Below are positions 1-64,000 of a stretch of DNA of 64,000 nt, one piece after another. Every line of letters begins with the position of its first letter. The first letter of the stretch is position 1. The DNA is from the human T2T-CHM13v2.0 reference genome, Homo sapiens: assembly GCA_009914755.4 (NCBI GenBank), contig CP086569.2:4320001-4384000 (forward strand), given 5' to 3'. Below the pieces are notes generated by a model. The model did no database searches, had not been told where the DNA came from, and saw nothing but the letters and a program-made list of their open reading frames with translations. Position numbers and translations under genes: made by a program.

Positions 1-621
1 TCTGCTAGGACAGTTCAGAAGGAAAATGTGGGTTTGGAGCCCCCAAACAGAGTCCCCACTGGGTCACTGCCTAGTGGAGCTGCGAAAAGAGGCCCACCAT
101 CCTCCAGACCCCAGAATGGTAGATCCTCGGTCAGCTTGCACCATGTGCCTAGAAAAGCCATAGACACTCAGTGCCAGCCTGTGAAAGCAGCCAAAAGGGG
201 GGATGTATCTTGCAAAGCCACAGAGGCAGAACTGCCCAAGGCCATGGCCTCTTGCATCAGTGTGATCTGGTTGTGAGACATGGAGTCAAAGGAGATCATT
301 TTGCAGCCTTATGATTTGACTGCCCCACTGGATTTTGGACTCACATGGGGCCTGTAGCCCCTTCATTTTTCAAATTTCCTCCATTTGCAATGGTTGTATC
401 TACCCAATGCCTCTACCCCTATTGTATCTACAAAGTAACTAACTTGCTTTTGATTTTACAGGCTCATAGATGGAAGAGACTTGCTTGGTCTCAGATGGGG
501 TTTTGGAATGTGGACATTTGAATGAATGCTGAAATGAGATAAGACACTGGGGGACTGTTGGAAGGGCAAAATTGTGTTTTGAATTGCGAGAACATGAGAT
601 TTGGGAGAAGCCAGTGGCAGA
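1..621 (+). mobile_element. THE1/MaLR internal region, 3' portion, cut off by the window start
   Basis: Collinear at roughly 80% identity with 6693-7312, the internal region of the complete THE1 copy downstream. It is followed directly by a THE1 LTR. Confidence 0.6.
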
Positions 622-984
622 ATAATATGGTTTGGCTGTGTCCCCACCCAAATCTCATCTTGAATTTTACCTCCCATAATCCCTGCATGTGGTGGGAGGG
701 GTCCAGTGGGAGGTAATTAAATCATGGGGGTGGGTTTTTCCTGTGCTGTTCTCGTGATACTGAATAAGTCTCAGGAGATCTGATGGTTTTACAAGGGTAG
801 TTCCCCTGCACACACTCTTGCCTACCACCATGAAAGATGTGTCTTTGTTCTTACTTCAATTTCTGCCATGATTTTGAGGCCTCCCCAGCCATGTGGAACT
901 GTGATTCCATTGAAATTTTTTTCTTTATAAATTACCCATTCTTTGGTGTTTCTTCATAGCAGTATGAAAATGAACTAATACAAT
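622..984 (+). mobile_element. THE1 (MaLR) LTR, the 3' LTR of the window-truncated element
   Basis: Begins AATATGGTTTGGCTGTGTCCCCACCCAAATCTCATCTTGAATT and ends GAAAATGAACTAATACAA. Length is about 360 bp, and the THE1 consensus hallmarks are present throughout. Confidence 0.75.
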
Positions 985-5125: not shown

Positions 5126-5419
5126 CCATTAATGATAGAATGGATAGAGAAAATGTGGTACATATACATCAAGGAATACTATGCAACCATACAAAATGAG
5201 ATCATGTCCTTTGCATGGACATGGATGGAACTGGAGGCCAGTATCTTTAGCAAACACAGGAAAAGGACAGAAAACCAAATTTCACATGTTCTCACTTGTA
5301 TGTGTGAGTTAAATGATGATAAAACATGAACACACAGAGGGGGACAAACACACTTGGGCCTTTTGGATGGTGAAGGGTGGGAGGTGGGAGAGGATCAGAA
5401 AAAAATAACTAATGGGTAC
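5126..5419 (+). mobile_element. Sense 3' segment of the same L1 insertion (ORF2 end and 3' UTR)
   Basis: Begins CATTAATGATAGAATGGATAGAGAAAATGTGGTACATATACA, corresponding to the L1 WIKKMWHIYTMEYY region. It is broken at 5419 by the THE1 LTR. Confidence 0.75.
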
Positions 5420-7673
5420 TGATATGGTTTGACTGTGACCCCACCCACATCTCATCTTGAATTGTAGCACCCATAACTCCCATGGGTTGTGAAAGGAGCA
5501 TGGTGGGAGATAATTGAATCATAGGGGCAGGCCTTTCCCATGCTATCCTCATGATGGTGAATAAGTCTTATGAGATCCAATGGTTTCACAAAGGGGATTT
5601 TCCATGCTCAAGTTATCTTCTCTTCTCTGCTGCCATGTGAGATGTGCCTTTCACCCTCTGCAAGGGTTGTGAGGCCCCCACAACCACATAGAACTTTGAG
5701 TCCATTAAATCTGTTTCTTTTGGAAATTGCCCAGTCTCAGGTATGTCATTATCAGCAGCATGAAAACGGACTAATACAGCCAGTATTGGGGTGCTGCTGC
5801 AAAGATACCAGAAGATGTGGAAGCAAATTTGTAACTAAGTAACTGGGAGATGTTGGAACAGTTTGGAGGGCTTAAAAGAAGATAGAAAAACGTGGAAAAG
5901 TTTGGAACTTCCCAGAGGCTTGTTGAATGACTTTGACAAAATGTTGATAATGACATAGACAATGAAATCCAGGCTGAGGTGGTCTCAGATGGAAATGAAG
6001 AAATTGTTGGAAACTAGAGCAAAGGTGATTCTTGTTATATTTTAGCAAAGAGACTGGTGGCATTTTGCCCCTGCCCTAGAGATTTGTGGAACTTTGAACT
6101 TGAGAGAGATAATTTAGGCTATCTGGTGGAAGAAATTTCTAAACAGCAAAGCATTCAAGAGGTGACTTGGGTGCTGTTAAAGGCATTCAGTTTTATAAGA
6201 GAGGCAGAGCATAAAAGTTTGAAAAATTTGCAGCCTGACAATGTGATAGAAAATTCAATTTTCTGAGGAGTAATTCAAGACAGCTGAAGAAACTTGCATA
6301 AGTAAGGAGGAGCTGAATGTTAATCCCCAAGACAATGTCACTAGGACATGTCAGCGGTCTTCATGGAAGCCCCTCCCATCACAAGCTTGGAGGCCTAGGA
6401 GGAAAAAAATGGTTTTGTGGGCCTGGCCCAGGATCCCTGTACAAGCCTAGGGTCTTGGTGCCCTGTGTCTCAGCTGCTCCAGCCAAAAGGGTCCAACATA
6501 GAGCTCAGGCTGTGGCTTGAGAGGATTCAAGCCCCAAGCCTTGGCAGCTTCCACATGATATTGAGCTTGCAAGTGCACAGAAGTCTGGAAATGGGGTTTG
6601 GGAACGTCTGCCTAGATTTCAGAGGATGGATGGAAATGCCTGGGTGTCCAGGCAGAAGTTTGCTGCAGAGGTGGGGCCCTCATGGAGAATCTCTGCTAGG
6701 GCAGTGCAGAAGGGAAATAGGGGGCTGGAGCCACTACACAAAATCCCCACTGGGACACTGCCTAGTGGAGCTGTGAAAAGAGGCCCACCATCTTCCAGAA
6801 CCCCAAATGGTAGATCCATAGACAGCTTACACCATGCACCTGGAAAAGCTGCAGACAGTCAACACCAGCCCTTGAAAGCAGCTTGGAGGGAAGCTGTACC
6901 CTGCAAAGCCACAGGGGCAGAGCTGCCTAAGATCATGGAACCGATCTCTTGCATCAGCATGAACCAGATGTGAGACATGGAGAGAAAGCAGATCATTTTG
7001 GAACTTTAAAATTTGACAGCGATTTTGGACTTGCATGGGGCCTGTAGCTCCTTTGTTTTGGCCAATTTTTCTCATTTGAAACAGGTGAATTTCACCAAAG
7101 CCTGTACCCCCATTGTATTTAGGAAGTAACTAACTTGCCTTCGATTATACAGGCTCATAGGTGGAAGAGACTTGCCTTATCTTCGATGAGACTTTGGATT
7201 GTGGAATTCTGAGTTCATGCTGAAATGAATTAAGGCCTTGGGGACTGTTGGGAACGCATTAATGGTTTTGAGATCTAAGGACATGAGATTTCGGAGGGCC
7301 CAGGGGTGGAATAATATGGTTTGGCTGTGTTGCTGCCCAAATCTCATCTTGAATTATAGCTCCCATAATTCTCACATATTGTGGGAGGGACCCAGTGGGA
7401 GATAATTGAATCATGGGGCCAGGTCTTTACCATGCTATTCTCATGATAGTGAATGAGTCTAATGAGATCTGATGGTTTTATAAAGGGGAGTTTTGCTACA
7501 CAAGTTCTCTTCTCTTGTTTGCCACCATGTGAAATATGCCTTTCACCTTCCACCATAATTGTGTGGCCTCCCCAGCCACGTGGAACTGTTAGTCTATTAA
7601 ACCTCTTTATTTTGTATATTGCCCAGTCTTTACATATGTCTTTATCGGCAGCCAGAAAATGGACTCATACAGG
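5420..7673 (+). mobile_element. Complete THE1 (MaLR) LTR retrotransposon: 5' LTR 5420-5780, internal region 5781-7312, 3' LTR 7313-7673
   Basis: Two direct LTRs of about 360 bp, each beginning TGATATGGTTTGACTGTG / AATATGGTTTGGCTGTG and ending GGACTAATACAG / GGACTCATACAGG. Total length is about 2.25 kb, as expected for THE1. Confidence 0.8.
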
Positions 7674-10024: not shown

Positions 10025-11272
10025 TTAGATCACTTGAGTTCTTTAAATTATGTTGGACAATTTAAAGAAAAAAGATATTATTTTACTGGTATGATTTTGA
10101 GCTTATCAATGTATGTAGATATGATAAATATGACAAAAATGAACATGAATTCTGCAAAAATTGAAGCAAGAATAAACATCAAATTTGTGGTGAAGTTTGA
10201 GTGAAAAAATGATGACATTCATGCTTTACAAAAAATTTATGGGGACAATGCCTCAAAGAAACCAGCAGTTTATGATGAATAACTCATTTTCAGAAGGGAT
10301 AAAAAAAGTTGAAGGTGAAGGCCTCAGCAGCAGACTATCCACATCAATTTCCAAAAAACAAATTCATCTTGTTCACACCCTATTTGGAGAGGACCCACAA
10401 TTAACAGGTGCAATAATAGCCAAAATCATGCACATAGCCATTAGTTCAGCTTACACAATTCTGGATGAAAAGTTGATGTTGAGCAAATTTGTCACTTGAT
10501 GGGTGCCAAAACCATTGCACCCAGGTCATCTGCAGATAAGAGCAGAGTTTTCATTGGAAATGTCAAACAATGGGATGAAGATGCTGAAACATGTATTCAA
10601 GGACTTGTAACAGGAGATAATACATGGCTTTACCAGTATGATCCCGAAGACGAAAGCAATGGCTATCAAGAGGTAGAAGTGTTTCAGTCAAAGCAAAAGT
10701 GGACAGATCGAGAAAAGGTAATGGCAACAGATTTTTCAGATGGTCAAGGCATTTTGCTTGTTAACTTTCTGGAGGGTCAAAGAATGATAACATTCGCTTA
10801 TTATGAGAGTGATTTGAGAAAGGTAGCCAAATGTTTAGGAGAAAACCACTGGGGAAAGCTTTACCAGAGAGTTCTCTGTCACAATTCCCATGCTTATTCT
10901 CATCAAATAAGGAATCCTTTACGAGAGTTTCAATGGAAAATTATTAGGCATCCATCATACAGTCTTGATTTGGCACCATCTGACTTATTTTTGTTTCCTA
11001 ATCTTAAAAAACTGTAAAGGGCACACATTTTCTCAGTTAATTATGTAAAGAAAAGCTGCATTGACATGGCTAAATTCCCAGGACCTTTAAGGCAGAATGA
11101 ATCGACCCAAATCATTGTTTACAAAACTGTTTGGAACTTGATGAAGCTTATATTGAGAAATAAAATTTATACTCTATATTTTTATTTTAAAATATCATTT
11201 TCCATGATCTTTTTGAAGTCCCCTTTTGTGCATTTATACATGTATAAATAAATATATGTATATTTGAAGCCT
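10025..11272 (+). mobile_element. mariner/Tc1-family DNA transposon, Hsmar-like (probably Hsmar2-type); the terminal repeats could not be confirmed
   Basis: Encodes a mariner transposase remnant. It sits in the inter-ORF spacer of L1M element B. The element ends are inferred from where L1M homology stops and resumes. Confidence 0.55.
10176..11017 (+). pseudogene. mariner transposase pseudogene, frameshifted with a premature stop
   Basis: N-terminus KFVVKFE, resembling the RAIFLFEFK helix-turn-helix. EDPQLTGAIIA..KFVT(R)WVP resembles the DNDQLRAIIEADP..KWVPHEL motif. First catalytic TGD(N)TW is present. The second LHDN is changed to LCHN. SLDLAPSDLFLFPNLK matches SPDLAPSDYHLF and is followed by a stop. 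The reading frame shifts by +2 at 10497. Confidence 0.65.
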
Positions 11273-14904: not shown

Positions 14905-17910
<3,006 letters not shown>

Positions 17911-24060: not shown

Positions 24061-24439
24061 CTCCTTGTTGAAAACAATCAAAATCTTGCTTCTGAGAAAG
24101 ATGTATTTACTTACGTTGGGTACAGGAATTTTCTTGTTTCATAATATGAACATTTAATTTCAATGATATATAGAGTGTTGGGTTTATTTGTATTTGATAT
24201 ATTTGTATTTAGTGTATTGTATTTAGTGTATACATTTGTCAAGACTTAACTGTACATTTAAATTTATGCATTTTGTTGTATGAAAATTATTCTTTAGTAA
24301 AATACTTATAAATATTATCAGAAAAAAATGACTTGTGAGTAATCAACTGGATTTGCCTAGATATTTCACTTTTTAAAACAAAATAATTATAATTTTAATT
24401 TCTTAGTGTATTTTTATGTATCAGAGAGTTTAACTACTT

Positions 24440-24620
24440 CATATATATAAATTAATTTGATCCTCATATCTAACCTATGAAATAAATATTAGTATCAACA
24501 TTTTACATATTAGAAAACTAAGGCACAACTTTAAGTAACTTTTTCAAAGTTGCATAACAAGTGAGTGAAAGAGCTGAGATTCAAATCCAGGCAGACTGGC
24601 TCCAAAGTCCATGTTCTTAA
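24440..24620. mobile_element. MIR-like SINE relic
   Basis: ..AAAACTAAGGCACAACTTTAAGTAACTT.. CAAAGTTGCATAACAAGTGAGTGAAAGAGCTGAGATTCAAATCCAGGCAGACTGGCTCCAAAGTCCATGTTCTTAATAA resembles the MIR core. Confidence 0.45.
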
Positions 24621-25757
24621 TAATTGTCTTAAAATTAGTTACTTTAAGCAGAACTATCATACATATTATGAACATTTAAAGCTTCCTACTTATGTAATTA
24701 CATTTTAAAAGCAATCATACTATATCTGCTGGCTTTATAAAGTATTAACTTTGCCATATACTACAACTATTTCAACAAAAATTTTTGGCATCAATATTAC
24801 AAAGACACAGTCAGCTCCAATTTGGAGGTACAGTCATACTATTTCTTTCAACAAAATGATATCTTTTTAACATTTTAAATAAAATTAAATCCAATGAAGA
24901 CAGATGCCAAAAAAAAAGACTTCTATGCATCAAGATAATAGCAAAGTTCATCAATAAAACAATCTGCAAATCTCCCATTGAAGGGGCAAATAGCTTAAGT
25001 AGTCATTGCATAAACTCCTTATGCTTATATCAATTACAAATGTTAACTAATGTTATCAATACAAATGTAAATTTTTTCTTCTATTAGTCTGTTAATAAAT
25101 GTACTGAAAACAAAATTAGACAAAAATGTAATAAATATTATAAAATGTTTCATTTGAATTTGTTTGACCAACATAGTAAGATTTTCATTGCATAAAATAG
25201 CACAGGAAAGACAGAACACTTGTTGATTAAGAGAAATTTTCAGGTTTTATTTTCTAAATTTAGCCTTAAACAAAGTTATTGAGAATATGTACATAATAAA
25301 TTTTCTTTATATTTTAATTCATTTGTCTATTCAACAAGTATTTATTGATTATCTATTAACTGTTAGGCGGTACTAAATAAAACTATCAATTTGTAGATTA
25401 AAAATATTCAGATATTAGCAATTTTTTCTGGTCCAACCTAATACATAGTATTAAGCTAGGTACTAAGTATGATTCAGATTGAAGAATACAGTACATTTTT
25501 TTCTGGCCTCATTGGGTGATTCAAGGCTTGCATCACTACATAAGTGAGATAACAAGCCATAGTAATTTGTACTAAAGAGCCAAAATACTATGGGATTTTA
25601 GAAAAGGAGAAAATTAATATGGTCTGGAATGCATAGACAGATGGAATTTAACACTTCAATACATTTCTGTTGAGGCAGCTAAATAGTCATTTGAAAATAT
25701 GATGCATCTGTGAAATGTATGGATACTACTCTACATGATTTTTAAATTTTGGACAGG

Positions 25758-28532: not shown

Positions 28533-28815
28533 GTGGGGTGCGGTGGCTCACACCTGTAATCCTAGCACTTTGGGAGGCTGAGGTGGGTGGATCACGAGGT
28601 CAGGAGTTCAAGACTAGCCTGGCCAACACGGTGAAACCCTGTGTCTACTAAAAATACAAAAATTAGCCAGGTGTGGTGGCCCGTGCCTGTAATCCCAGCT
28701 ACTCAGGAGGCTGAGGCAGGAGGATCTCTTGAACCTAGGAGGCAGAGGTTGCAGTGAGCTGAGATTGGCCCACTGCACTGCACTCCAGCCTGGGCAACAG
28801 AGTGAGACTGTCTCG
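28533..28815 (+). mobile_element. Alu SINE, both monomers present, no poly(A) tail
   Basis: GTGGGGTGCGGTGGCTCACACCTGTAATCC ... GGGCAACAGAGTGAGACTGTCTCG, followed directly by ATATATATACATATA. Confidence 0.85.
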
Positions 28816-29043
28816 AATATATATACATATATTTTGGTGTACCCACTCTTCCACTATGCAGATGATAAAACATTTGGTCTACTCTACAACTGCTGTACAC
28901 TTTTAAATGCTATAGTCTACTTCATAGCTTATATATTCCACTGAACTTTTCGCTTAAGACTCCAATAAATCTCCACAATAAATCTCAAGGGAGGAGCCAC
29001 TTAAAACAGACTAAGGCTTTCTAACCATCCTAAGGACAAACTC

Positions 29044-29349
29044 TTTTTTTTTTTTTTTTTTTTTATCTTTGAGACAGAGTCTTGCTCTGTCACCCAGGCT
29101 AGAGTGCAGTGGTGGGACTTGGCTCACTGCAACCTCCGCCTCCGGGGTTCACACCATTCTCCTGCCTTAGCCTCCCAAGTAGCTGGGACTATAGGCACCC
29201 GCCACCACGCCCGGCTAATTTTTGTATTTTTATTAGAGACGGGGTTTCACTATATTGGTCAGGCTGGTCTCGAACTCCTGACCTCTTGATCCACCCGCCT
29301 CGGCCTCCCAAAATGCTGGGATTACAGGCGTGAGCCACAGTGCCCGGCC
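29044..29349 (-). mobile_element. Alu SINE, full length
   Basis: 21-nt poly(T) and the reverse-complement Alu body ending ..GTGAGCCACAGTGCCCGGCC. A clean target-site duplication AGGACAAACTC(TT) flanks both ends. Confidence 0.95.
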
Positions 29350-33700: not shown

Positions 33701-34111
33701 CATGGTGAAGTCAATTCAATATTTCAGGCATGTTATCATTTACAAAGAGATTAATGTTTACCAGTATAAGAAATGGATATAGAAAATCAATTTCTGTGGA
33801 ATAGTAGGAATGATAAGGAGTCTGGGGAAAAGAAATATTTAGTCTACAAAACAAATAAATTTAAAAAGTGATTCCAATCTTTAAATACAGTGATATCGGC
33901 AGTATTTGTAAAATTCAGATGTTGAAAAAGTGGGAAAGATAGGAGATGTACCCACTGAACACACCAAAAAGCAAATTCATTTGCACCAAAAGAGCAATCT
34001 CTAATTTAAATATGTATCTTAACCTTCCAAACAACTCCCTTGCAGATTAACCTTTCAAAAAACTCCCGTATGTATACACTAACTACTTGTTAGTTAAATT
34101 GCTTAACCTCT

Positions 34112-34485
34112 TTGCACTTCAATTTGCTCACCTGTGAAATGTAGGCAACAATAGTGTCCATATCATAATGTTACTGTGATGGTAAAGTGAGGTAATGCAT
34201 ACAAGAAGGTTAGTGCCTTAAACAAGTTAAATACTTGATACACATCAATTATTATTTTGTACAGGATGGGGTTATTGTTAAAAAGGGTATGTGAAAAGAA
34301 AATAGCATGCCTCAAAATAAAATCATATTAAATAGTAGAACATTTCATTTTATGCATGATGAGCTGACATGTTAATATAGAAAAATATCTTGCCTAGTTT
34401 GATTTTTATATAAGCTCAAAGTTATTCTAAATTTGCATAGTTTCTGTTTTTTGCTATGTAATCCTTAAAAATTAGTTAAAAATTG
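34112..34485 (+). repeat. Left arm of a long inverted repeat (about 374 bp)
   Basis: TTGCACTTCAATTTGCTCACCTGTGAAA... is the reverse complement of 35851-35878. Homology at about 90% identity continues to ..GCTATGTAATCCTTAAAAA. Confidence 0.85.
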
Positions 34486-35504
34486 CAATTGTTATTCTGA
34501 ATGGTTAAAGCTTAATATACTTAGATTGTCCATCTGTCTGATTTATCAGTATTAGATTTATCAATGATATTAGATTGTCAATATTCTGAATGATTTTAGG
34601 AATATCAAATACATTAAACATAATAACTACATTATAGTAATATCATCTTTTTTTGATAACCATCTTAAGTAATTTTGTGCCCCCTCTAATTCCAAAGATT
34701 AATTTTAGTAGATAGTAAGTGAGGAATGCCAGAATAGTTTACAGAGAGATCAGATTTTCTTAATTATGTATTTTTAGCTTTCTTATCTGGAATAAGTACT
34801 ATTTAAATACTATGATAAAGGAATGGACATAAATATTTTACCTTTTAAATCAGAGTCTCTTCATCTATGCATTTTCTTCAATTGCAATTAAATCCTGAAT
34901 CAAAAACAGAAATAAATTTTGAGCTACTCATTTGGGGAATTAAGAGACTGAAGAAAATCTCCATTAATCAGAGGTATAAGAAGTTCATGTCTTAAGTCAA
35001 ATATACAAAGTCAAAACCATGACTACCTGGCAGCCTCACTTCAAAAATTCTGATCCTACCCCCAAACGTGTCTGTTCCATCTGTCTAGTCAAATGTGAAA
35101 ACGATTATCTGAAGAAAAAAAGGCTGTTTCATAATTCCATACTCTTAGTACTATCAAGTTATTAGAAATATTTTAAGGAGACTAAAAGTTTTCATAAAAT
35201 TGCTTCAATTTGCTTTTTCATTTCGTAAAATGAGACAAATGTCACCACCAACAGCTGACCATATATACTTGAAATGGGAAATTAACTCCAAAGTGTAGAC
35301 TTAATTATTTGTGGCATTCTTTTATTTATGAGCTGCAGAGTAGACACCCTGTTATGTACATTGAAAAAATATTTGAACCAAAAAATAAGAAAAAGACAGG
35401 TAAAAATACACAAACATAAATTAGTTGTCTGCATATCTAAAGCTCTCCTAGCTGAAAATCTACCTTGCATTCAACTTTTGTATCATCTACTAAAAAGCCA
35501 GTAT

Positions 35505-35878
35505 GTTTTCTTTAAACTACTTTTTAAGGATTACATAGCAAAAAATAAAAATTGTGCAAATTTAGAATAACTTTGAGCTTATATAAAAATCAAACTAGGT
35601 AAGGTCTTTTTCTATATTAGCATGTCAACTCATCATGCATAAAATGAAACGTTCTACTATTTAATATGATTTTACTTTGAGGCATGCTATTTTCTTTTCA
35701 CATACACTTTTTAACAATAACCCTATCCTGTACAAAATAATAGTTGATATGTGTCAAGGACTTACCTTGTTTAAGGCACTAACCTTTTTGTTTGTATTAC
35801 TTCACTTCACCTTTAGCAAAGTTATGATATAGACGCTAATGTTACCTGCCTTTCACAGGTGAGCAAATTGAAGTGCAA
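35505..35878 (-). repeat. Right arm of the inverted repeat (reverse complement of 34112-34485)
   Basis: TTTTTAAGGATTACATAGC ... TTTCACAGGTGAGCAAATTGAAGTGCAA. A spacer of about 1019 bp lies between the arms. Confidence 0.85.
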
Positions 35879-36582
35879 TTGGTTATTTAATTATATGAAA
35901 TATATTAGATATTCTTCCTGGTCAGTTCGTTAAAGTACAAGAAGCATTTATTCATAGGTTGAATAAATAGCTGTCGCTAGGTATAATTTGATAGATAAAT
36001 TCTATCAAATGTATCACGCATTCTAATTTGTCTGCAGTAAAGTCTGAAATTTCATTGAAATCGCATTGCAGGGTTAAAGAGTATAATTTCCAGGATGTGC
36101 TGTACTTGTCAAAATCCAAATAGTAACCAGGGAGCTATCACAGCATGAGTTTGTTTGTTAAATGACAAATTGGTGTCTAAGCACTGAATGACTAAAACTT
36201 TCTAAAACTTTGGTTTTATGCATTTTAATTGAGGTCGAGGTGTGGGAAAAAAAAATCTGGATCCTGGGTATCTGCCAAAGGCCAAAAAAAAAAAAAGACT
36301 TCAACATGGGTAATACAAAATCTAGAACAAATAGGAACAGCATTCATTTCAGGAATTTCTGCAGGTGTGTTTGAATTCTTATATACTTAAATATTTGTAA
36401 ACAACAAAGTATAAATTTGGCAGCTACTTCACCACTTCAACCATTATGTCTATGTAAATGTCTTGAAAAGCATGGGTCAGAACTAAAAGCATTAGTTACT
36501 TCAATTTGGAAAAGTTGTCTCAGACTTTCGGGTAACAAACTAAGTTCATTATATTTCTTTTATAAACACAGGCATGGATGGA

Positions 36583-36620
36583 CACACACACACACACACA
36601 CACACAAACACTCACACAAA
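36583..36620. repeat. (CA)n dinucleotide microsatellite
   Basis: Direct reading: gacacacacacacacacacacacacaaacactcacaca. Confidence 0.9.
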
Positions 36621-37559
36621 ATTATCATACCTTAATCTACTATTTTTGTCCACACCACACTAAAGTTAAACTAAGTCAAAATCTTAGAATCATATTTTGC
36701 TATTTATTCTCCTTTATTCTCTATATCCAGTTGATATCGCTTTGATGACTGGAAGAACACCAGGGTTCTTGGTTTTGAGCCAATAGGATTAACGACACAG
36801 ATATATGTGGAGTGGTTTTAAGGAGCAAAAAGTTTAATAGGCCAGAAATAAGAAAGGAGAAAACAGCTTCTTCATATAGAGACAGAAGAAGGAGGGCTTG
36901 GAACAAAAAGGAACCTCATCTGTGGCAGAAAATTTGTTGGTTATATTGGGAGGCTGGAGGAGGCAGTGTCGGGTTTACATAGGGCCCAGGGGATTGGTTT
37001 GACTAGGTGTGTTATTTATGTAGCCAAAGAAAAACCTGGCCCTTCCACCTTACCTTTTTAATATGCAAATGTGGGTTGCCATGATGTTTTGAGCACATGG
37101 TGTTATTTGGAGGTGGCCATGACACTTGACACAGGTGGTGACAAGGAGAAGATGGTGGGAATCGGCATGTTGGGTAGACCCAGTTACCATTTGTTGGCAT
37201 TTGTATATTGAAGCTTGCTGGCTTGGCTTTCTAAGCCACGTTTCTGTTAGTTTTTACCAAAAACCTTTACCCTGTTTACTTGCCTAAAAATTATTTTTAA
37301 ATAACTTTTGTACTACAATCAAGTACAAACTTTTACTAATTCATCTTTTGTAACTTCTCATGAATCTGGCACTTTATCTTCATTTTAATTTTTACTGCTA
37401 TTATCAAGGCTGTTAGTGACAATTCCTAAACAATTGCTTACAGTCTGTCCCCATTCATCTACCAGCTGCCTCTGCCACCATCTTTCTAACATTACACTGC
37501 TAAAGGCCAGCATTTATTAGCACTAACTATACAGTGAGTGCTAGGCGAAAGGATCTACC

Positions 37560-37930
37560 AAGACCATTAACATTTAATTTTCACAATAGCCCTATGAGAT
37601 AAGAACTATTATCCTCAATATACTGATAAAACCCTGAGCCTTAAAAAAGGTGGAATGACACAGCTATAAATTGTGGAAACAAGATTTGAACCCAGGATGT
37701 TTAATTCCAGAATGATGTTATTGAGTTTGTTACACTGTTTCACTGAACAATAATTTCAACATGTTAACACATGATCTGGAAATTGTCTATGACATCTCAT
37801 CACATATAGCTAATAAAGAGCTAACATTCATTGAGTGCCGACTCCATGTTAAGTAATTTATGTGAATTATCTCATTTAAACTTTTCAATGGCCATATAAT
37901 TTACAATTATCTCCATTTTACAGAACAGGT
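37560..37930. mobile_element. Two MIR-like SINE relics, roughly 37560-37720 and 37800-37930
   Basis: ..TTCACAATAGCCCTATGAGATAAGAACTATTATCCTCA.. and ..ATTCATTGAGTGCCGACTCCATGTTAAGTAATTTATGTGAATTATCTCATTTAAAC...CTCCATTTTACAGAACAGG.. resemble MIR consensus segments. Confidence 0.4.
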
Positions 37931-39323
37931 AACAGATTGAGAGACTTGTGAATGCCACACTTTAATCTCATCTCCTCCCCACCACCCTGAAATCACAAGC
38001 TTGAACTGCCATCCGGACCTGAGGCAACCTTTCCCTCATTAAGACTAAGTTTCTCCTGTGTGCAGAAATATGAAGGATGGAAGGAAAAGGAAGAGATATC
38101 CGGTACTATTGTAGTCATTTATCTGTGGATTGTCAATACTCTTGTGTCTAACATCAATCATTAATAACCTGTGTTTGGTAGGCATGAAAAGGCTGGCTGG
38201 GTTGTGTGAGTTCTTAGATGGACCTATAGCCAGAATAAGAACAGAAATGGTTTTCACAATCACCTTGACACTTCTTAAAAGCTATTGAATCTAACAACTA
38301 TTTATTTCTCCTGTTCTAATTTTTCTTATACAAATTGGGAAGACAGAATTTGGAGTCAATGGCAAGTGGTAGTATAGCAGGCTTGGTCAACTCTGAAGCC
38401 CTGAGAAATGTATTTAGCTCTCTTTATCGCAGTGGTTCTTAAAGGGTGTTTCTGGAACAGCATTATTAACATAACTTATAAACTTGTGGGAAATTCCAAC
38501 TCTCAGGCTTCTCTTCAGATGTACTGAATTAGGACCTAGAGGTGGGGCCAAGCAATGTGTATTTTGGCAGTCCCTGAAGGTGATTCTGACACACGATAAA
38601 GTTATAAAAACCACTGCTTTAGAATGTGAGATATTTAGCACCACTGTTTACTTCTGCTTTAGGTCTTATTTAATAATTTCTGGGCAATATAATAAGCCTA
38701 CAGTTTAGAAATCCATTTGTGTTCTGTTCTTTATCTTGACCATTCATTTTTTTGGAAATCAATACCTTGTATCTCAAATTTTCTCATGCTATAGTTACTG
38801 TAATTTATATTAAAAATACTGTATATAAAAATAAAAATGTTCACCATATTTCTCCTTTTCCAGAATATCAAATATATTGTTATTATCACTGATGTTGTTG
38901 AGAATATCCAAACGGTATTTTTAATAGTTTCATTAAAGAAATTAAAAAACAAAAGCAATTTAAGGGAATTGCTGAGACAAATAATTTGATTCTCATGATT
39001 CCTCCAGAGTGGAATAACTGATGTATAATATTGCTGTCTTCTAATTTCTTTTTCTTAGTTTGTGGGTCTCTTTGTGTGTGTTTCACAAGGCATATTCTCA
39101 GCTACAATAGCATTAAAATGTCATTAAAGAAACACGTATTTATGAATTATATGTTTTAATAACACAGTATTTTTAAATTTGTGGTTAATTTTATTGTTAT
39201 ATAGACAAAATTAAATATAGTTTTAAAATAAATTTATAAAAATTTTTATTCACTAAGACTAAATGAGTTAATTTAAGCTGCAGATTTATAAAAATAGATC
39301 TTTAATCTGTCCAATATAAACTG

Positions 39324-45497: not shown

Positions 45498-45797
45498 GAA
45501 AGGAAGAAGGAAGGAAGGAGGGAAGGAAGAAAGGAGGGAAGGAAGGAAGTCAAAACGGAAGGGGTGAAGGAAGGATGAAAGGAAGGAAGGAAGGGAAATG
45601 AAGTGAGGAACGGAAGAGGGAGGGAAGGAAGGAAGGAAGTCAAAACAGAAGGAGTGAAGGAAGGATGGAAGGAAGGAAGTAAAGGGGAATGAAGCGAGGA
45701 ATGAAGGAGGGAGGGAAGGAAGGAAGGAAGGTAGGAAGGAAGGAAGGCAGGAAGGAAGGCAGACAGGCAGGGAGGGAGGGAGGGAGGGAGGGAAGAC
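45498..45797. repeat. (GGAA)n / (GGAAGG)n purine-rich microsatellite, about 300 bp, with an internal duplicated unit of about 95 bp
   Basis: Direct reading: ggaaggaaggagggaaggaag... The two units are GGAAGGAAGTCAAAACGGAAGGGGTGAAGGAAGGATGAAAGGAAGG.. and GGAAGGAAGTCAAAACAGAAGGAGTGAAGGAAGGATGGAAGGAAGG... Confidence 0.95.

Positions 45798-60719: not shown

Positions 60720-64000
<3,281 letters not shown>

What the first reader, a model, noticed from the sequence alone, without database searches (positions are those of the whole stretch)
34112..35878. Long inverted repeat (about 374-bp arms, ~90% identical, ~1 kb unique spacer) in otherwise unique AT-rich sequence
This is the only sizeable structure in the window that is not a standard interspersed repeat. 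Arm A (34112-34485) is the reverse complement of arm B (35505-35878). I aligned them by eye from TTGCACTTCAATTTGCTCACCTGTGAAA through GCTATGTAATCCTTAAAAA and saw scattered substitutions and small indels throughout. The 1019-bp spacer has no ORF and no repeat that I recognise. The arms match no human transposon terminus that I recall, and the flanks show no clear target-site duplication. A local inverted duplication (palindromic segmental duplication) is therefore more likely than a long-TIR DNA transposon. A structure of this kind can form a hairpin or cruciform, can be a fork-stalling or rearrangement hotspot, and if transcribed would give a long dsRNA stem, a possible substrate for endogenous siRNA or ADAR editing. 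About 10% arm divergence means the duplication is old, unless gene conversion has kept the arms more similar than their age would predict.
Basis: seen in the sequence. Interest (0 to 1): 0.5.

Follow-up and report, generated by a model that had tools for sequence, protein, structure and literature searches.

The report
Old local inverted duplication carrying MIR
A 370-bp stretch of primate DNA, made of the tail of an ancient MIR SINE plus about 226 bp of unique sequence, was copied in reverse orientation 1 kb away tens of millions of years ago; it is a real but ordinary genomic scar with no sign of function.

Summary
The inverted repeat is real. Arm A (34112-34481) pairs with arm B (35878-35511): 331 of 368 positions match (89.9%), with one 2-bp indel, and the spacer is 1029 bp. 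Fuzzy homology runs about 15 bp further out, and nothing continues beyond that on either side.

The outer ~160 bp of each arm is the 3' two-thirds of a MIR SINE; the inner ~226 bp is unique. Against the MIR consensus the arms share 41 differences, with only 9 and 15 private ones. So one arm was copied from the other after the MIR had decayed.

The whole unit has no target-site duplication, the window holds no other copy, and the spacer shows no transposase. Every other long repeat pair in the window is Alu or L1.

The best explanation is a local DNA-level inverted duplication, probably a replication template switch, roughly 25-75 Myr old. Which arm is the parent is unresolved.

Either strand would fold as RNA into a ~350-bp duplex, but expression could not be tested. 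With a 1-kb spacer and 10% mismatch, cruciform-driven fragility is unlikely.

This is an ordinary member of a well-catalogued class, so interest is low.

The parts
34112..34481 (+). Arm A, solid part of the inverted repeat
   Evidence: Local alignment to the reverse complement of 35511-35878: 331/368 identical, one 2-bp indel; blastn E = 5e-119.
35511..35878 (-). Arm B, solid part (reverse complement of arm A)
34097..34111 (+). Fuzzy outer extension of arm A; its partner is 35879-35892
   Evidence: It aligns only under permissive scoring, and mismatches and a gap cluster here. Beyond it the flanks score at null level.
35879..35892 (-). Fuzzy outer extension of arm B
34482..35510 (.). Unique 1029-bp spacer (29% GC)
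   Evidence: No second copy in the window. No homology between its two ends. Only small ORFs of 32-80 aa, and the 80-aa one has no Pfam hit. No Rfam hit at E<=1.
34091..34254 (+). MIR SINE fragment (consensus positions ~92-260) forming the outer part of arm A
   Evidence: nhmmer E = 9e-12. Pairwise score 46.5 against 10.8+-1.5 for shuffles. The consensus was recalled from memory but is validated by three other significant hits in the window.
35738..35890 (-). The same MIR fragment (consensus positions ~100-260) forming the outer part of arm B
   Evidence: nhmmer E = 3e-5. Pairwise score 31 against 11.2+-1.4 for shuffles.
34255..34481 (+). Non-MIR, apparently unique inner part of arm A; partner 35511-35737. 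The arms differ less here (6.5%) than in the MIR part (16-17%).
34090..34102 (+). Outer copy of the short direct repeat TTAGTTAAATTGC bracketing arm A
   Evidence: The 9-mer TTAGTTAAA is shared with 34472-34480, and about 1.5% of null pairs reach >=9. The extended match is 13/13 with a 2-nt gap, null fraction 0.054. Borderline: either a microhomology substrate or chance.
34472..34486 (+). Inner copy of the direct repeat, TTAGTTAAAAATTGC
   Evidence: By direct reading of the sequences printed, arm B's two ends resemble this motif at about 8/10-8/11 positions.

Best explanation
This is a single-locus, ancient inverted duplication. A segment of about 370-385 bp, made of the 3' two-thirds of an already decayed MIR SINE plus ~226 bp of adjoining unique DNA, was copied in reverse-complement orientation to a site 1029 bp away on the same chromosome. 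The most likely mechanism is inferred, not shown. It is a replication or repair template switch in which a nascent 3' end left its template, annealed by short homology to the complementary strand about 1 kb away, copied ~380 nt backwards, and returned. In the four-point template-switch model this is a 3-2-1-4 or 1-4-3-2 arrangement. The AT-rich motif TTAGTTAAA(TTGC), present at both ends of arm A and in degraded form at both ends of arm B, is a candidate for the microhomology used at both switches. The arms have since drifted apart to ~10% (K2P 0.11). That implies roughly 25-46 Myr at neutral rates of 2.2e-9 to 1.2e-9 per site per year (rates from my own knowledge), or up to ~75 Myr if only the more divergent outer part is used. 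Today it is most likely a neutral relic. It encodes nothing recognisable. It could form a ~350-bp imperfect dsRNA if the region is transcribed, but in duplex DNA it is too widely spaced and too mismatched to be a strong cruciform or fragile site.
For: Shown: the arm pair, its limits and identity. Shown: homology stops abruptly on all four sides. Shown: the outer ~160 bp of both arms match MIR, and the arm homology continues 226 bp past the MIR 3' end. Shown: in the three-way comparison, 90 sites are the same in all three, 41 differences are shared by the arms, 9 are private to A, 15 are private to B and 7 differ in all three, so the copying happened after most of the MIR decay. Shown: no TSD around the whole unit or around arm B, and no other copy of arm or spacer in the window. 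Shown: all other long repeat pairs are multi-copy Alu or L1. Shown: the 10% arm divergence rules out an assembly or cloning artefact. The layout matches patterns reported to generate single inverted repeats by template switching in great-ape genomes, including events where the return point precedes the departure point and leaves direct repeats (PMC7954356). Inverted duplicates are abundant in human DNA (4.3 million by a loose definition; PMC5398296). Folding potential: 344-353 arm-to-arm base pairs in the MFE of either strand, and -498.5 kcal/mol for the joined arms against -143+-6 for shuffled controls. The spacer effect on fragility comes from PMC10164571.
Against: No orthologous sequence and no genome-wide search were available, so single-locus status is shown only for this 64-kb window. 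The ancestral one-arm state was never seen. The microhomology motif is statistically borderline (p about 0.015-0.054). The hints about which arm is the parent are both weak. MIR-head similarity continues outside arm A but not outside arm B (anchored extension p = 0.046), which favours A as parent. The nearly perfect direct repeat around A would, read as a target duplication, favour A as the insert. Reported short-range template switches are usually tens to hundreds of nt, so a 380-nt copy over a 1-kb jump is at the large end. The MIR consensus was recalled from memory, although the window validates it.
Confidence: 0.75

Rival explanations
1. It is a non-autonomous DNA transposon with ~380-bp terminal inverted repeats and a 1-kb internal region, a member of a known or new dispersed family.
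For: The architecture (two inverted arms around a unique core) is what such an element would look like. Genome-wide copy number could not be tested; four collection scans found nothing, but those collections are prokaryotic or metagenomic.
Against: No TSD flanks the unit. The arm ends are not sharp: the outer 15 bp are degenerate. The outer 40% of each 'TIR' is a heavily decayed, 5'-truncated MIR, with 41 decay substitutions shared by the two arms. That means ordinary genomic DNA was copied, not a transposon terminus. The window holds no other copy. The longest spacer ORF has no Pfam hit.
Confidence: 0.05
2. The arms are two independent insertions of the same interspersed repeat in opposite orientation, like an inverted Alu pair.
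For: Both arms contain MIR sequence. Inverted SINE pairs are common, and one inverted Alu pair lies in this window at 28536-28759/29122-29345.
Against: Independent MIR copies would each carry their own decay. Here 41 differences from the consensus are shared against 24 private. Identity is 84-90%, whereas each arm is only 61-65% identical to the MIR consensus. Homology continues 226 bp beyond the MIR 3' end into sequence with no other copy in the window. Both arms stop at the same points.
Confidence: 0.03
3. Arm A is an RNA-mediated (L1 target-primed) retro-insertion of a transcript from the arm B region. The repeat TTAGTTAAA(AA)TTGC would be its 13-15-bp target-site duplication and TTAAAAA a vestigial A-tail.
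For: A direct repeat brackets arm A, and its 13-15 bp is, from general knowledge of L1 insertions, a typical TSD length. The arm ends in ...CCTTAAAAA just before the repeat.
Against: The repeat is only borderline significant (p 0.015-0.054). There is no real poly(A) tail. The repeat does not start at an L1-endonuclease-like A-rich site. By direct reading, arm B's two ends resemble the supposed target duplication (about 8/10-8/11 positions), which a true TSD should not. A retrocopy landing 1 kb from its source is very improbable a priori. The outer repeat copy lies inside the MIR alignment.
Confidence: 0.05
4. Whatever its origin, the structure is now a functional, transcribed long-hairpin RNA locus (an endo-siRNA, ADAR or innate-immune dsRNA source), kept similar by selection or by arm-to-arm gene conversion.
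For: The predicted stem is very stable. The inner 232 bp of the arms differ by 6.5% and the outer part by 16% (Fisher p = 0.001-0.007 on the MIR/non-MIR split). About 7.8% of human intergenic inverted duplicates are expressed (PMC5398296).
Against: After correcting for the change-point search the unevenness is not significant (permutation p = 0.08). There is no Rfam family at gathering level and no known miRNA. 37 mismatches break the stem into perfect runs of at most 45 bp. No expression or conservation data could be consulted. The 17:10 split of transitions into pairs that would be G:U wobbles in + strand versus - strand RNA (counted) does not single out one transcribed strand.
Confidence: 0.05

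Closest known systems
Inverted duplicates catalogued genome-wide with Inverted Repeats Finder (Warburton et al. 2004 method; Chen et al. 2017, PMC5398296)
   Same: Two reverse-complement arms around a unique spacer in non-coding primate DNA, with arm identity above 80% and a predicted stable hairpin if transcribed.
   Different: The arms (370-385 bp) are long for this class, which is dominated by very short arms. The spacer (1029 bp) is just over the 1000-nt cut-off that study used, so this locus would have been excluded from it.
Short-range template-switch mutations, four-point model (Loytynoja & Goldman 2017; Walker et al. 2021, PMC7954356)
   Same: A nearby segment is copied in reverse complement and inserted, producing a single inverted repeat. 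The 3-2-1-4 or 1-4-3-2 ordering fits. A return upstream of the departure point leaves flanking direct repeats.
   Different: Published events involve templates within tens to hundreds of nucleotides and are found as fresh mutation clusters between great apes. This one copies ~380 nt across ~1 kb and is tens of Myr old, so its junction microhomology can no longer be read cleanly.
FoSTeS / MMBIR / ODIRA replication-based inverted rearrangements (PMC2621351; PMC10766186)
   Same: A nascent strand switches to the complementary template at short (micro)homology within or near a fork, giving inverted copies.
   Different: Those models explain kb-to-Mb copy-number variants, triplications and palindromic junctions with short interruptions. 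Here the result is a small, clean, two-copy insertion with a 1-kb interruption.
Inverted Alu pairs (IRAlus), the main human dsRNA and A-to-I editing substrates
   Same: ~300-bp imperfect inverted arms within about 1 kb on one strand, with similar predicted duplex length. A true example lies at 28536-29345 in this window.
   Different: IRAlus arise from two independent SINE insertions. Here the arms are copies of each other and include non-repeat DNA.
Large sex-chromosome palindromes maintained by gene conversion (e.g. PMC8327919, PMC3723533)
   Same: Inverted duplication with a unique spacer. The lower divergence in the inner part of the arms could reflect a past conversion tract.
   Different: Those have arms from several kb to Mb, >99% arm identity and testis genes. 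This one has 0.37-kb arms, 90% identity and no gene.

Membership tests
Locus-specific inverted duplication (inverted duplicate) | Two reverse-complement arms, well above chance, separated by a unique spacer | tested here: met
   331/368 identical, E = 5e-119, 1029-bp spacer with no second copy.
Locus-specific inverted duplication (inverted duplicate) | The arms derive from each other and not from independent repeat insertions | tested here: met
   41 shared against 9 and 15 private differences from the MIR consensus; homology continues 226 bp past the MIR.
Locus-specific inverted duplication (inverted duplicate) | The arm sequence is single-locus in the genome | not testable with these tools
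   Shown only within the 64-kb window. The public collections scanned are prokaryotic or metagenomic and gave nothing.
Template-switch inverted insertion (four-point model / FoSTeS-MMBIR type) | The inverted copy of a nearby template is inserted with point order 3-2-1-4 or 1-4-3-2 | tested here: met
   The geometry of arms and spacer fits either order.
Template-switch inverted insertion (four-point model / FoSTeS-MMBIR type) | Microhomology at both switch junctions | tested here: inconclusive
   The TTAGTTAAA motif lies at both ends of arm A, with degraded equivalents at both ends of arm B, but p is only 0.015-0.054 and the junctions are eroded.
Template-switch inverted insertion (four-point model / FoSTeS-MMBIR type) | An ancestral or outgroup allele lacking one arm | not testable with these tools
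   No orthologous sequence could be obtained.
Long-TIR DNA transposon | Target-site duplication flanking the whole element | tested here: not met
   No direct repeat of >=5 bp at the outer boundaries.
Long-TIR DNA transposon | Multiple dispersed copies with conserved termini | tested here: inconclusive
   No other copy in the window; the rest of the genome was not searchable.
Long-TIR DNA transposon | A transposase remnant or family-specific internal sequence | tested here: not met
   The spacer ORFs are at most 80 aa, and the longest has no Pfam hit.
Inverted SINE pair (two independent MIR insertions) | Arm similarity confined to the SINE, and no higher than expected from two independently decayed copies | tested here: not met
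   The arms are 84-90% identical to each other but 61-65% to the consensus, and the homology includes 226 bp of non-MIR DNA.
L1-mediated retrocopy | Poly(A) tail plus a TSD that is unrelated to the source flanks | tested here: not met
   Only five A's are present. The candidate TSD is borderline, and by direct reading it resembles arm B's ends.
C/D-box snoRNA snoU6-53 (RF00377) | Score at or above the Rfam gathering threshold; C and D boxes with a terminal stem | tested here: not met
   19.1 and 23.4 bits against a threshold of 36. Only model positions 1-33 align (C box plus guide-like stretch). There is no D box and no match to the rest of the bovine snoRNA.

The most novel reading that the evidence does not exclude
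The structure could be a transcribed long-hairpin locus. Its inner 232-bp stem would have been kept more similar (6.5% against 16% divergence) by arm-to-arm gene conversion or by selection on a dsRNA product. That would make it a non-Alu, MIR-bearing endogenous dsRNA or hairpin-RNA gene born by template switching.
Probability: 0.05. Interest if true: 0.45.

Novelty: new member of a known kind. Interest (0 to 1): 0.15.

Why it matters
It matters little beyond bookkeeping. It is a clean, datable example of a mid-sized inverted duplication: a 380-bp copy made across a 1-kb jump. That scale falls between the tens-of-bp template switches described in great apes and the kb-to-Mb inverted copy-number variants seen in disease. 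The embedded MIR acts as a built-in outgroup, which shows without any other genome that the arms were copied from each other. If the region turned out to be transcribed, it would be a non-Alu dsRNA source of about 350 bp. Nothing here shows that it is.

Tried and rejected
1. Extending the arms. The outer and inner flanks, tested at 100, 200 and 400 bp, align no better than random window segments. The duplication is therefore bounded and is not the conserved core of a larger eroded palindrome.

2. TSD searches. There is none for the whole unit or for arm B. Only a borderline repeat brackets arm A.

3. Deciding which arm is the parent. Anchored extension of the MIR head beyond the arm edge gives 5.5 for A (p = 0.046) and 0 for B. 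This is too weak to settle the question, and it pulls against reading the repeat around A as a target duplication.

4. Finding orthologues or extra copies. Exact-product look-ups of two spacer or junction ORFs found nothing. Four DNA pattern scans, two of metagenome contigs and two of genome contigs, also found nothing. These collections are not primate genomes, so the negatives say nothing about human copy number.

5. Rfam. There are no hits at gathering level in the whole window. The only sub-threshold hits are snoU6-53-like at equivalent positions in both arms. Published bovine SNOU6_53 primers show that the similarity does not extend past about 27 nt, so I rejected this as a snoRNA or a demonstrable snoRNA retrocopy.

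6. Uneven divergence as proof of gene conversion or selection. The a-priori MIR/non-MIR split gives Fisher p = 0.001-0.007. A search-corrected change-point test gives p = 0.08. I left it as unexplained and suggestive.

7. Strand bias of wobble-compatible transitions. The split is 17 to 10 (counted), which is not informative.

8. Assembly artefact. This is rejected because artefactual fold-backs would be identical, not 10% diverged.

Full report
**Observation.**
- The repeat finder reports two adjoining inverted blocks: 34181-34481/35511-35811 (301 nt, 91%) and 34112-34175/35815-35878 (64 nt, 86%).
- A gapped local alignment merges them into one arm pair, 34112-34481 against the reverse complement of 35511-35878. 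It has 331 matches, 37 mismatches and one 2-bp indel, which is 89.9% identity. blastn gives E = 5e-119.
- Under permissive scoring the homology extends about 15 bp further out, to 34097/35892, with clustered mismatches and a small gap.
- Alignments of the next 100, 200 and 400 bp of outer and inner flank score no better than random window segments. The arms are therefore bounded on all four sides.
- The spacer is 34482-35510, which is 1029 bp. Otherwise the description is accurate.

**Context.**
- The window is primate DNA, with nine Alu 5' heads. It contains L1 reverse-transcriptase remnants and a mariner-type transposase remnant.
- A whole-window repeat scan shows that every other long direct or inverted pair belongs to a multi-copy network, either Alu or L1 3' ends.
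- The 34.1/35.5-kb pair is the only strictly two-copy relationship, and it has the highest identity for its length.
- Neither the arms nor the spacer has any further copy in the window at E < 1e-3 with a word size of 7.

**What the arms are made of.**
- The outer ~160 bp of each arm is the 3' two-thirds of a MIR SINE, in the + orientation in arm A.
- I recalled the MIR consensus from memory, so I validated it on the window. nhmmer finds five significant matches: 24621-24434 (E = 5e-21), 37720-37505, 37945-37818, and the two arms at 34091-34219 (E = 9e-12) and 35877-35749 (E = 3e-5).
- Pairwise scores are 46.5 for arm A and 31 for arm B, against about 11+-1.5 for shuffles.
- The MIR ends near 34254. 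The remaining ~226 bp of each arm (34255-34481 and 35511-35737) matches nothing else available to me.

**The embedded MIR works as an outgroup.** In a three-way alignment of arm A, arm B and the MIR consensus:

| Site class | Count |
|---|---|
| Same in all three | 90 |
| Arms agree with each other, differ from consensus | 41 |
| Only arm A differs | 9 |
| Only arm B differs | 15 |
| All three differ | 7 |

- Two independent MIR insertions would not share 41 decay substitutions. Their similarity also would not continue 226 bp past the SINE. So one arm was copied from the other long after the MIR inserted and decayed.
- This rules out an inverted SINE pair.
- It also makes a transposon terminal inverted repeat very unlikely, because the 'terminus' is ordinary, aged genomic DNA.
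- In line with that, the unit has no target-site duplication. The spacer ORFs are at most 80 aa, and the longest has no Pfam hit.

**Age.** These ages rest on neutral rates of 2.2e-9 to 1.2e-9 per site per year, which come from my own knowledge rather than a tool.

| Region | K2P distance | Age |
|---|---|---|
| Solid arms overall | 0.109 (26 transitions, 11 transversions) | 25-46 Myr |
| Outer 136 bp | 0.186 | 42-77 Myr |
| Inner 232 bp | 0.068 | 16-28 Myr |

- The best change point, 34249, sits at the MIR 3' end.
- On the a-priori MIR/non-MIR split the difference has Fisher p = 0.001-0.007. A permutation test corrected for the change-point search gives only p = 0.08.
- A later gene-conversion tract over the inner part, local rate variation and constraint are all possible, and I cannot separate them without outgroups.

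**Junctions and mechanism.**
- Arm A is bracketed by a direct repeat: TTAGTTAAATTGC at 34090-34102 and TTAGTTAAAAATTGC at 34472-34486.
- The shared 9-mer is reached by about 1.5% of null region pairs. The extended alignment is reached by 5.4%. This is borderline.
- Both ends of arm B carry degraded versions of the same motif, about 8/10-8/11 positions by direct reading. A true target-site duplication of an insertion should not look like that.
- The simplest reading is a DNA-level template switch. A nascent 3' end leaves its template, anneals through this short AT-rich homology to the complementary strand about 1 kb away, copies ~380 nt in the reverse direction, and returns through the second copy of the motif.
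- This geometry is the 3-2-1-4 (or 1-4-3-2) arrangement of the four-point template-switch model. In great-ape genomes that arrangement most often yields single inverted repeats. Variants in which the return point precedes the departure point leave direct repeats (PMC7954356).
- The event is also related in principle to the FoSTeS, MMBIR and ODIRA fork-switch models (PMC2621351; PMC10766186), though on a far smaller scale.
- The mechanism is inferred and the microhomology is not proven.

**Which arm is the parent is unresolved.** MIR-head similarity continues outside arm A (anchored extension 5.5, p = 0.046) but not outside arm B (0), which weakly favours A as the parent. The near-perfect repeat around A could instead be read as marking A as the insert. 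A model in which A is the parent and the repeat pre-existed as the switch substrate reconciles both observations. I prefer it at roughly 60:40.

**What it does now.**
- No function is indicated. Rfam finds nothing at gathering level in the whole window.
- As RNA, either strand folds with 344-353 arm-to-arm base pairs. The joined arms reach -498.5 kcal/mol against -143+-6 for shuffled controls, with perfect runs of up to 45 bp. If the region is transcribed, a long imperfect dsRNA would form, comparable to an inverted Alu pair such as the one at 28536-29345 in this window.
- I could not test expression. In one survey, 7.8% of human intergenic inverted duplicates were expressed (PMC5398296).
In yeast, lengthening an Alu-IR spacer from 12 to 100 bp lowers IR-induced recombination about 300-fold, and a 1.5-kb spacer lowers gross rearrangements about 31-fold. 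Divergence reduces instability further. Only in long single-stranded regions do widely spaced, diverged repeats stay active (PMC10164571).

**Side lead.** Both arms contain, at equivalent positions, a ~27-nt stretch resembling the C box plus U6-guide region of the C/D snoRNA snoU6-53. The hits are 34351-34411 at 19.1 bits and 35599-35641 at 23.4 bits, against a gathering score of 36. The E-value is 0.05 for the 3-kb search and about 1 when scaled to the whole window. Only model positions 1-33 align and there is no D box. Published bovine SNOU6_53 primer sequences (PMC5679375) have no counterpart in the arms. I treat this as unconfirmed, probably chance.

**What could not be done.** Exact-product look-ups of local ORFs and four pattern scans of metagenome and prokaryote genome collections returned nothing. 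I therefore have no orthologous locus and no genome-wide copy count. Those two checks, set out in the next steps, would settle single-locus status, the date, the parent arm and the junction structure.

**Verdict.** The feature is an old, locus-specific inverted duplication of MIR-plus-unique DNA, most likely from a local template switch. It is an unremarkable member of a class that numbers in the millions in the human genome (PMC5398296), unusual only for its arm length. Interest is low (0.15). The most novel reading still open is a conserved, expressed hairpin locus, at about 5% probability.

Noticed in passing
window 34351-34411 (+) and 35599-35641 (-): A ~27-nt motif in both arms resembles the C box plus U6-guide region of C/D snoRNA snoU6-53 (19.1 and 23.4 bits, gathering 36). 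Arm B matches the consensus at 24 of ~27 positions. There is no D box and no similarity beyond ~30 nt.
   Followed up: partly
window 34112-34249 versus 34250-34481 (and partners in arm B): Arm-to-arm divergence is uneven: 16% in the outer MIR part and 6.5% in the inner unique part, with the change point at the MIR 3' end. Fisher p = 0.001-0.007, but search-corrected p = 0.08. Possible causes are a gene-conversion tract, constraint or chance.
   Followed up: partly
window 28536-28759 and 29122-29345: A canonical inverted Alu pair, 84% complementary with a 362-nt spacer. It is a more typical dsRNA and editing substrate than the finding itself.
   Followed up: no
window 24434-24621 (-), 37505-37720 (-), 37818-37945 (-): Three further MIR SINE copies detected with the recalled consensus (E = 5e-21, 4e-10, 4e-6). 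Two lie only 1.6-2 kb to the right of arm B.
   Followed up: no
window 45500-45791: An (AAGG)n microsatellite-like array of about 73 units at 71% matches. It explains the strong purine skew at 44-46 kb and the spurious Ser/Pro/Leu-rich ORFs on the minus strand.
   Followed up: partly
window 10496-11017 (+): A 173-aa ORF with a mariner-type transposase DDE fragment (PF01359, E = 1.8e-5), a fossil Tc1/mariner element.
   Followed up: partly
window 14984-15370 (+) and 63504-63914 (-): L1-type reverse-transcriptase remnants (PF00078). L1 3'-end copies at about 17.2-17.8, 25.9-26.5, 39.5-40.1 and 42.1-42.6 kb form most of the long repeat pairs in the window.
   Followed up: partly
window 1-797 versus 6692-7486, plus 5373-5721: Direct repeats of 75-80% identity spaced 6691 bp apart, with a third partial copy, in a GC-richer stretch. 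They might be an old LTR pair or a local direct duplication.
   Followed up: no
window 36582-36618: An (AC)18 microsatellite about 700 bp to the right of arm B.
   Followed up: no
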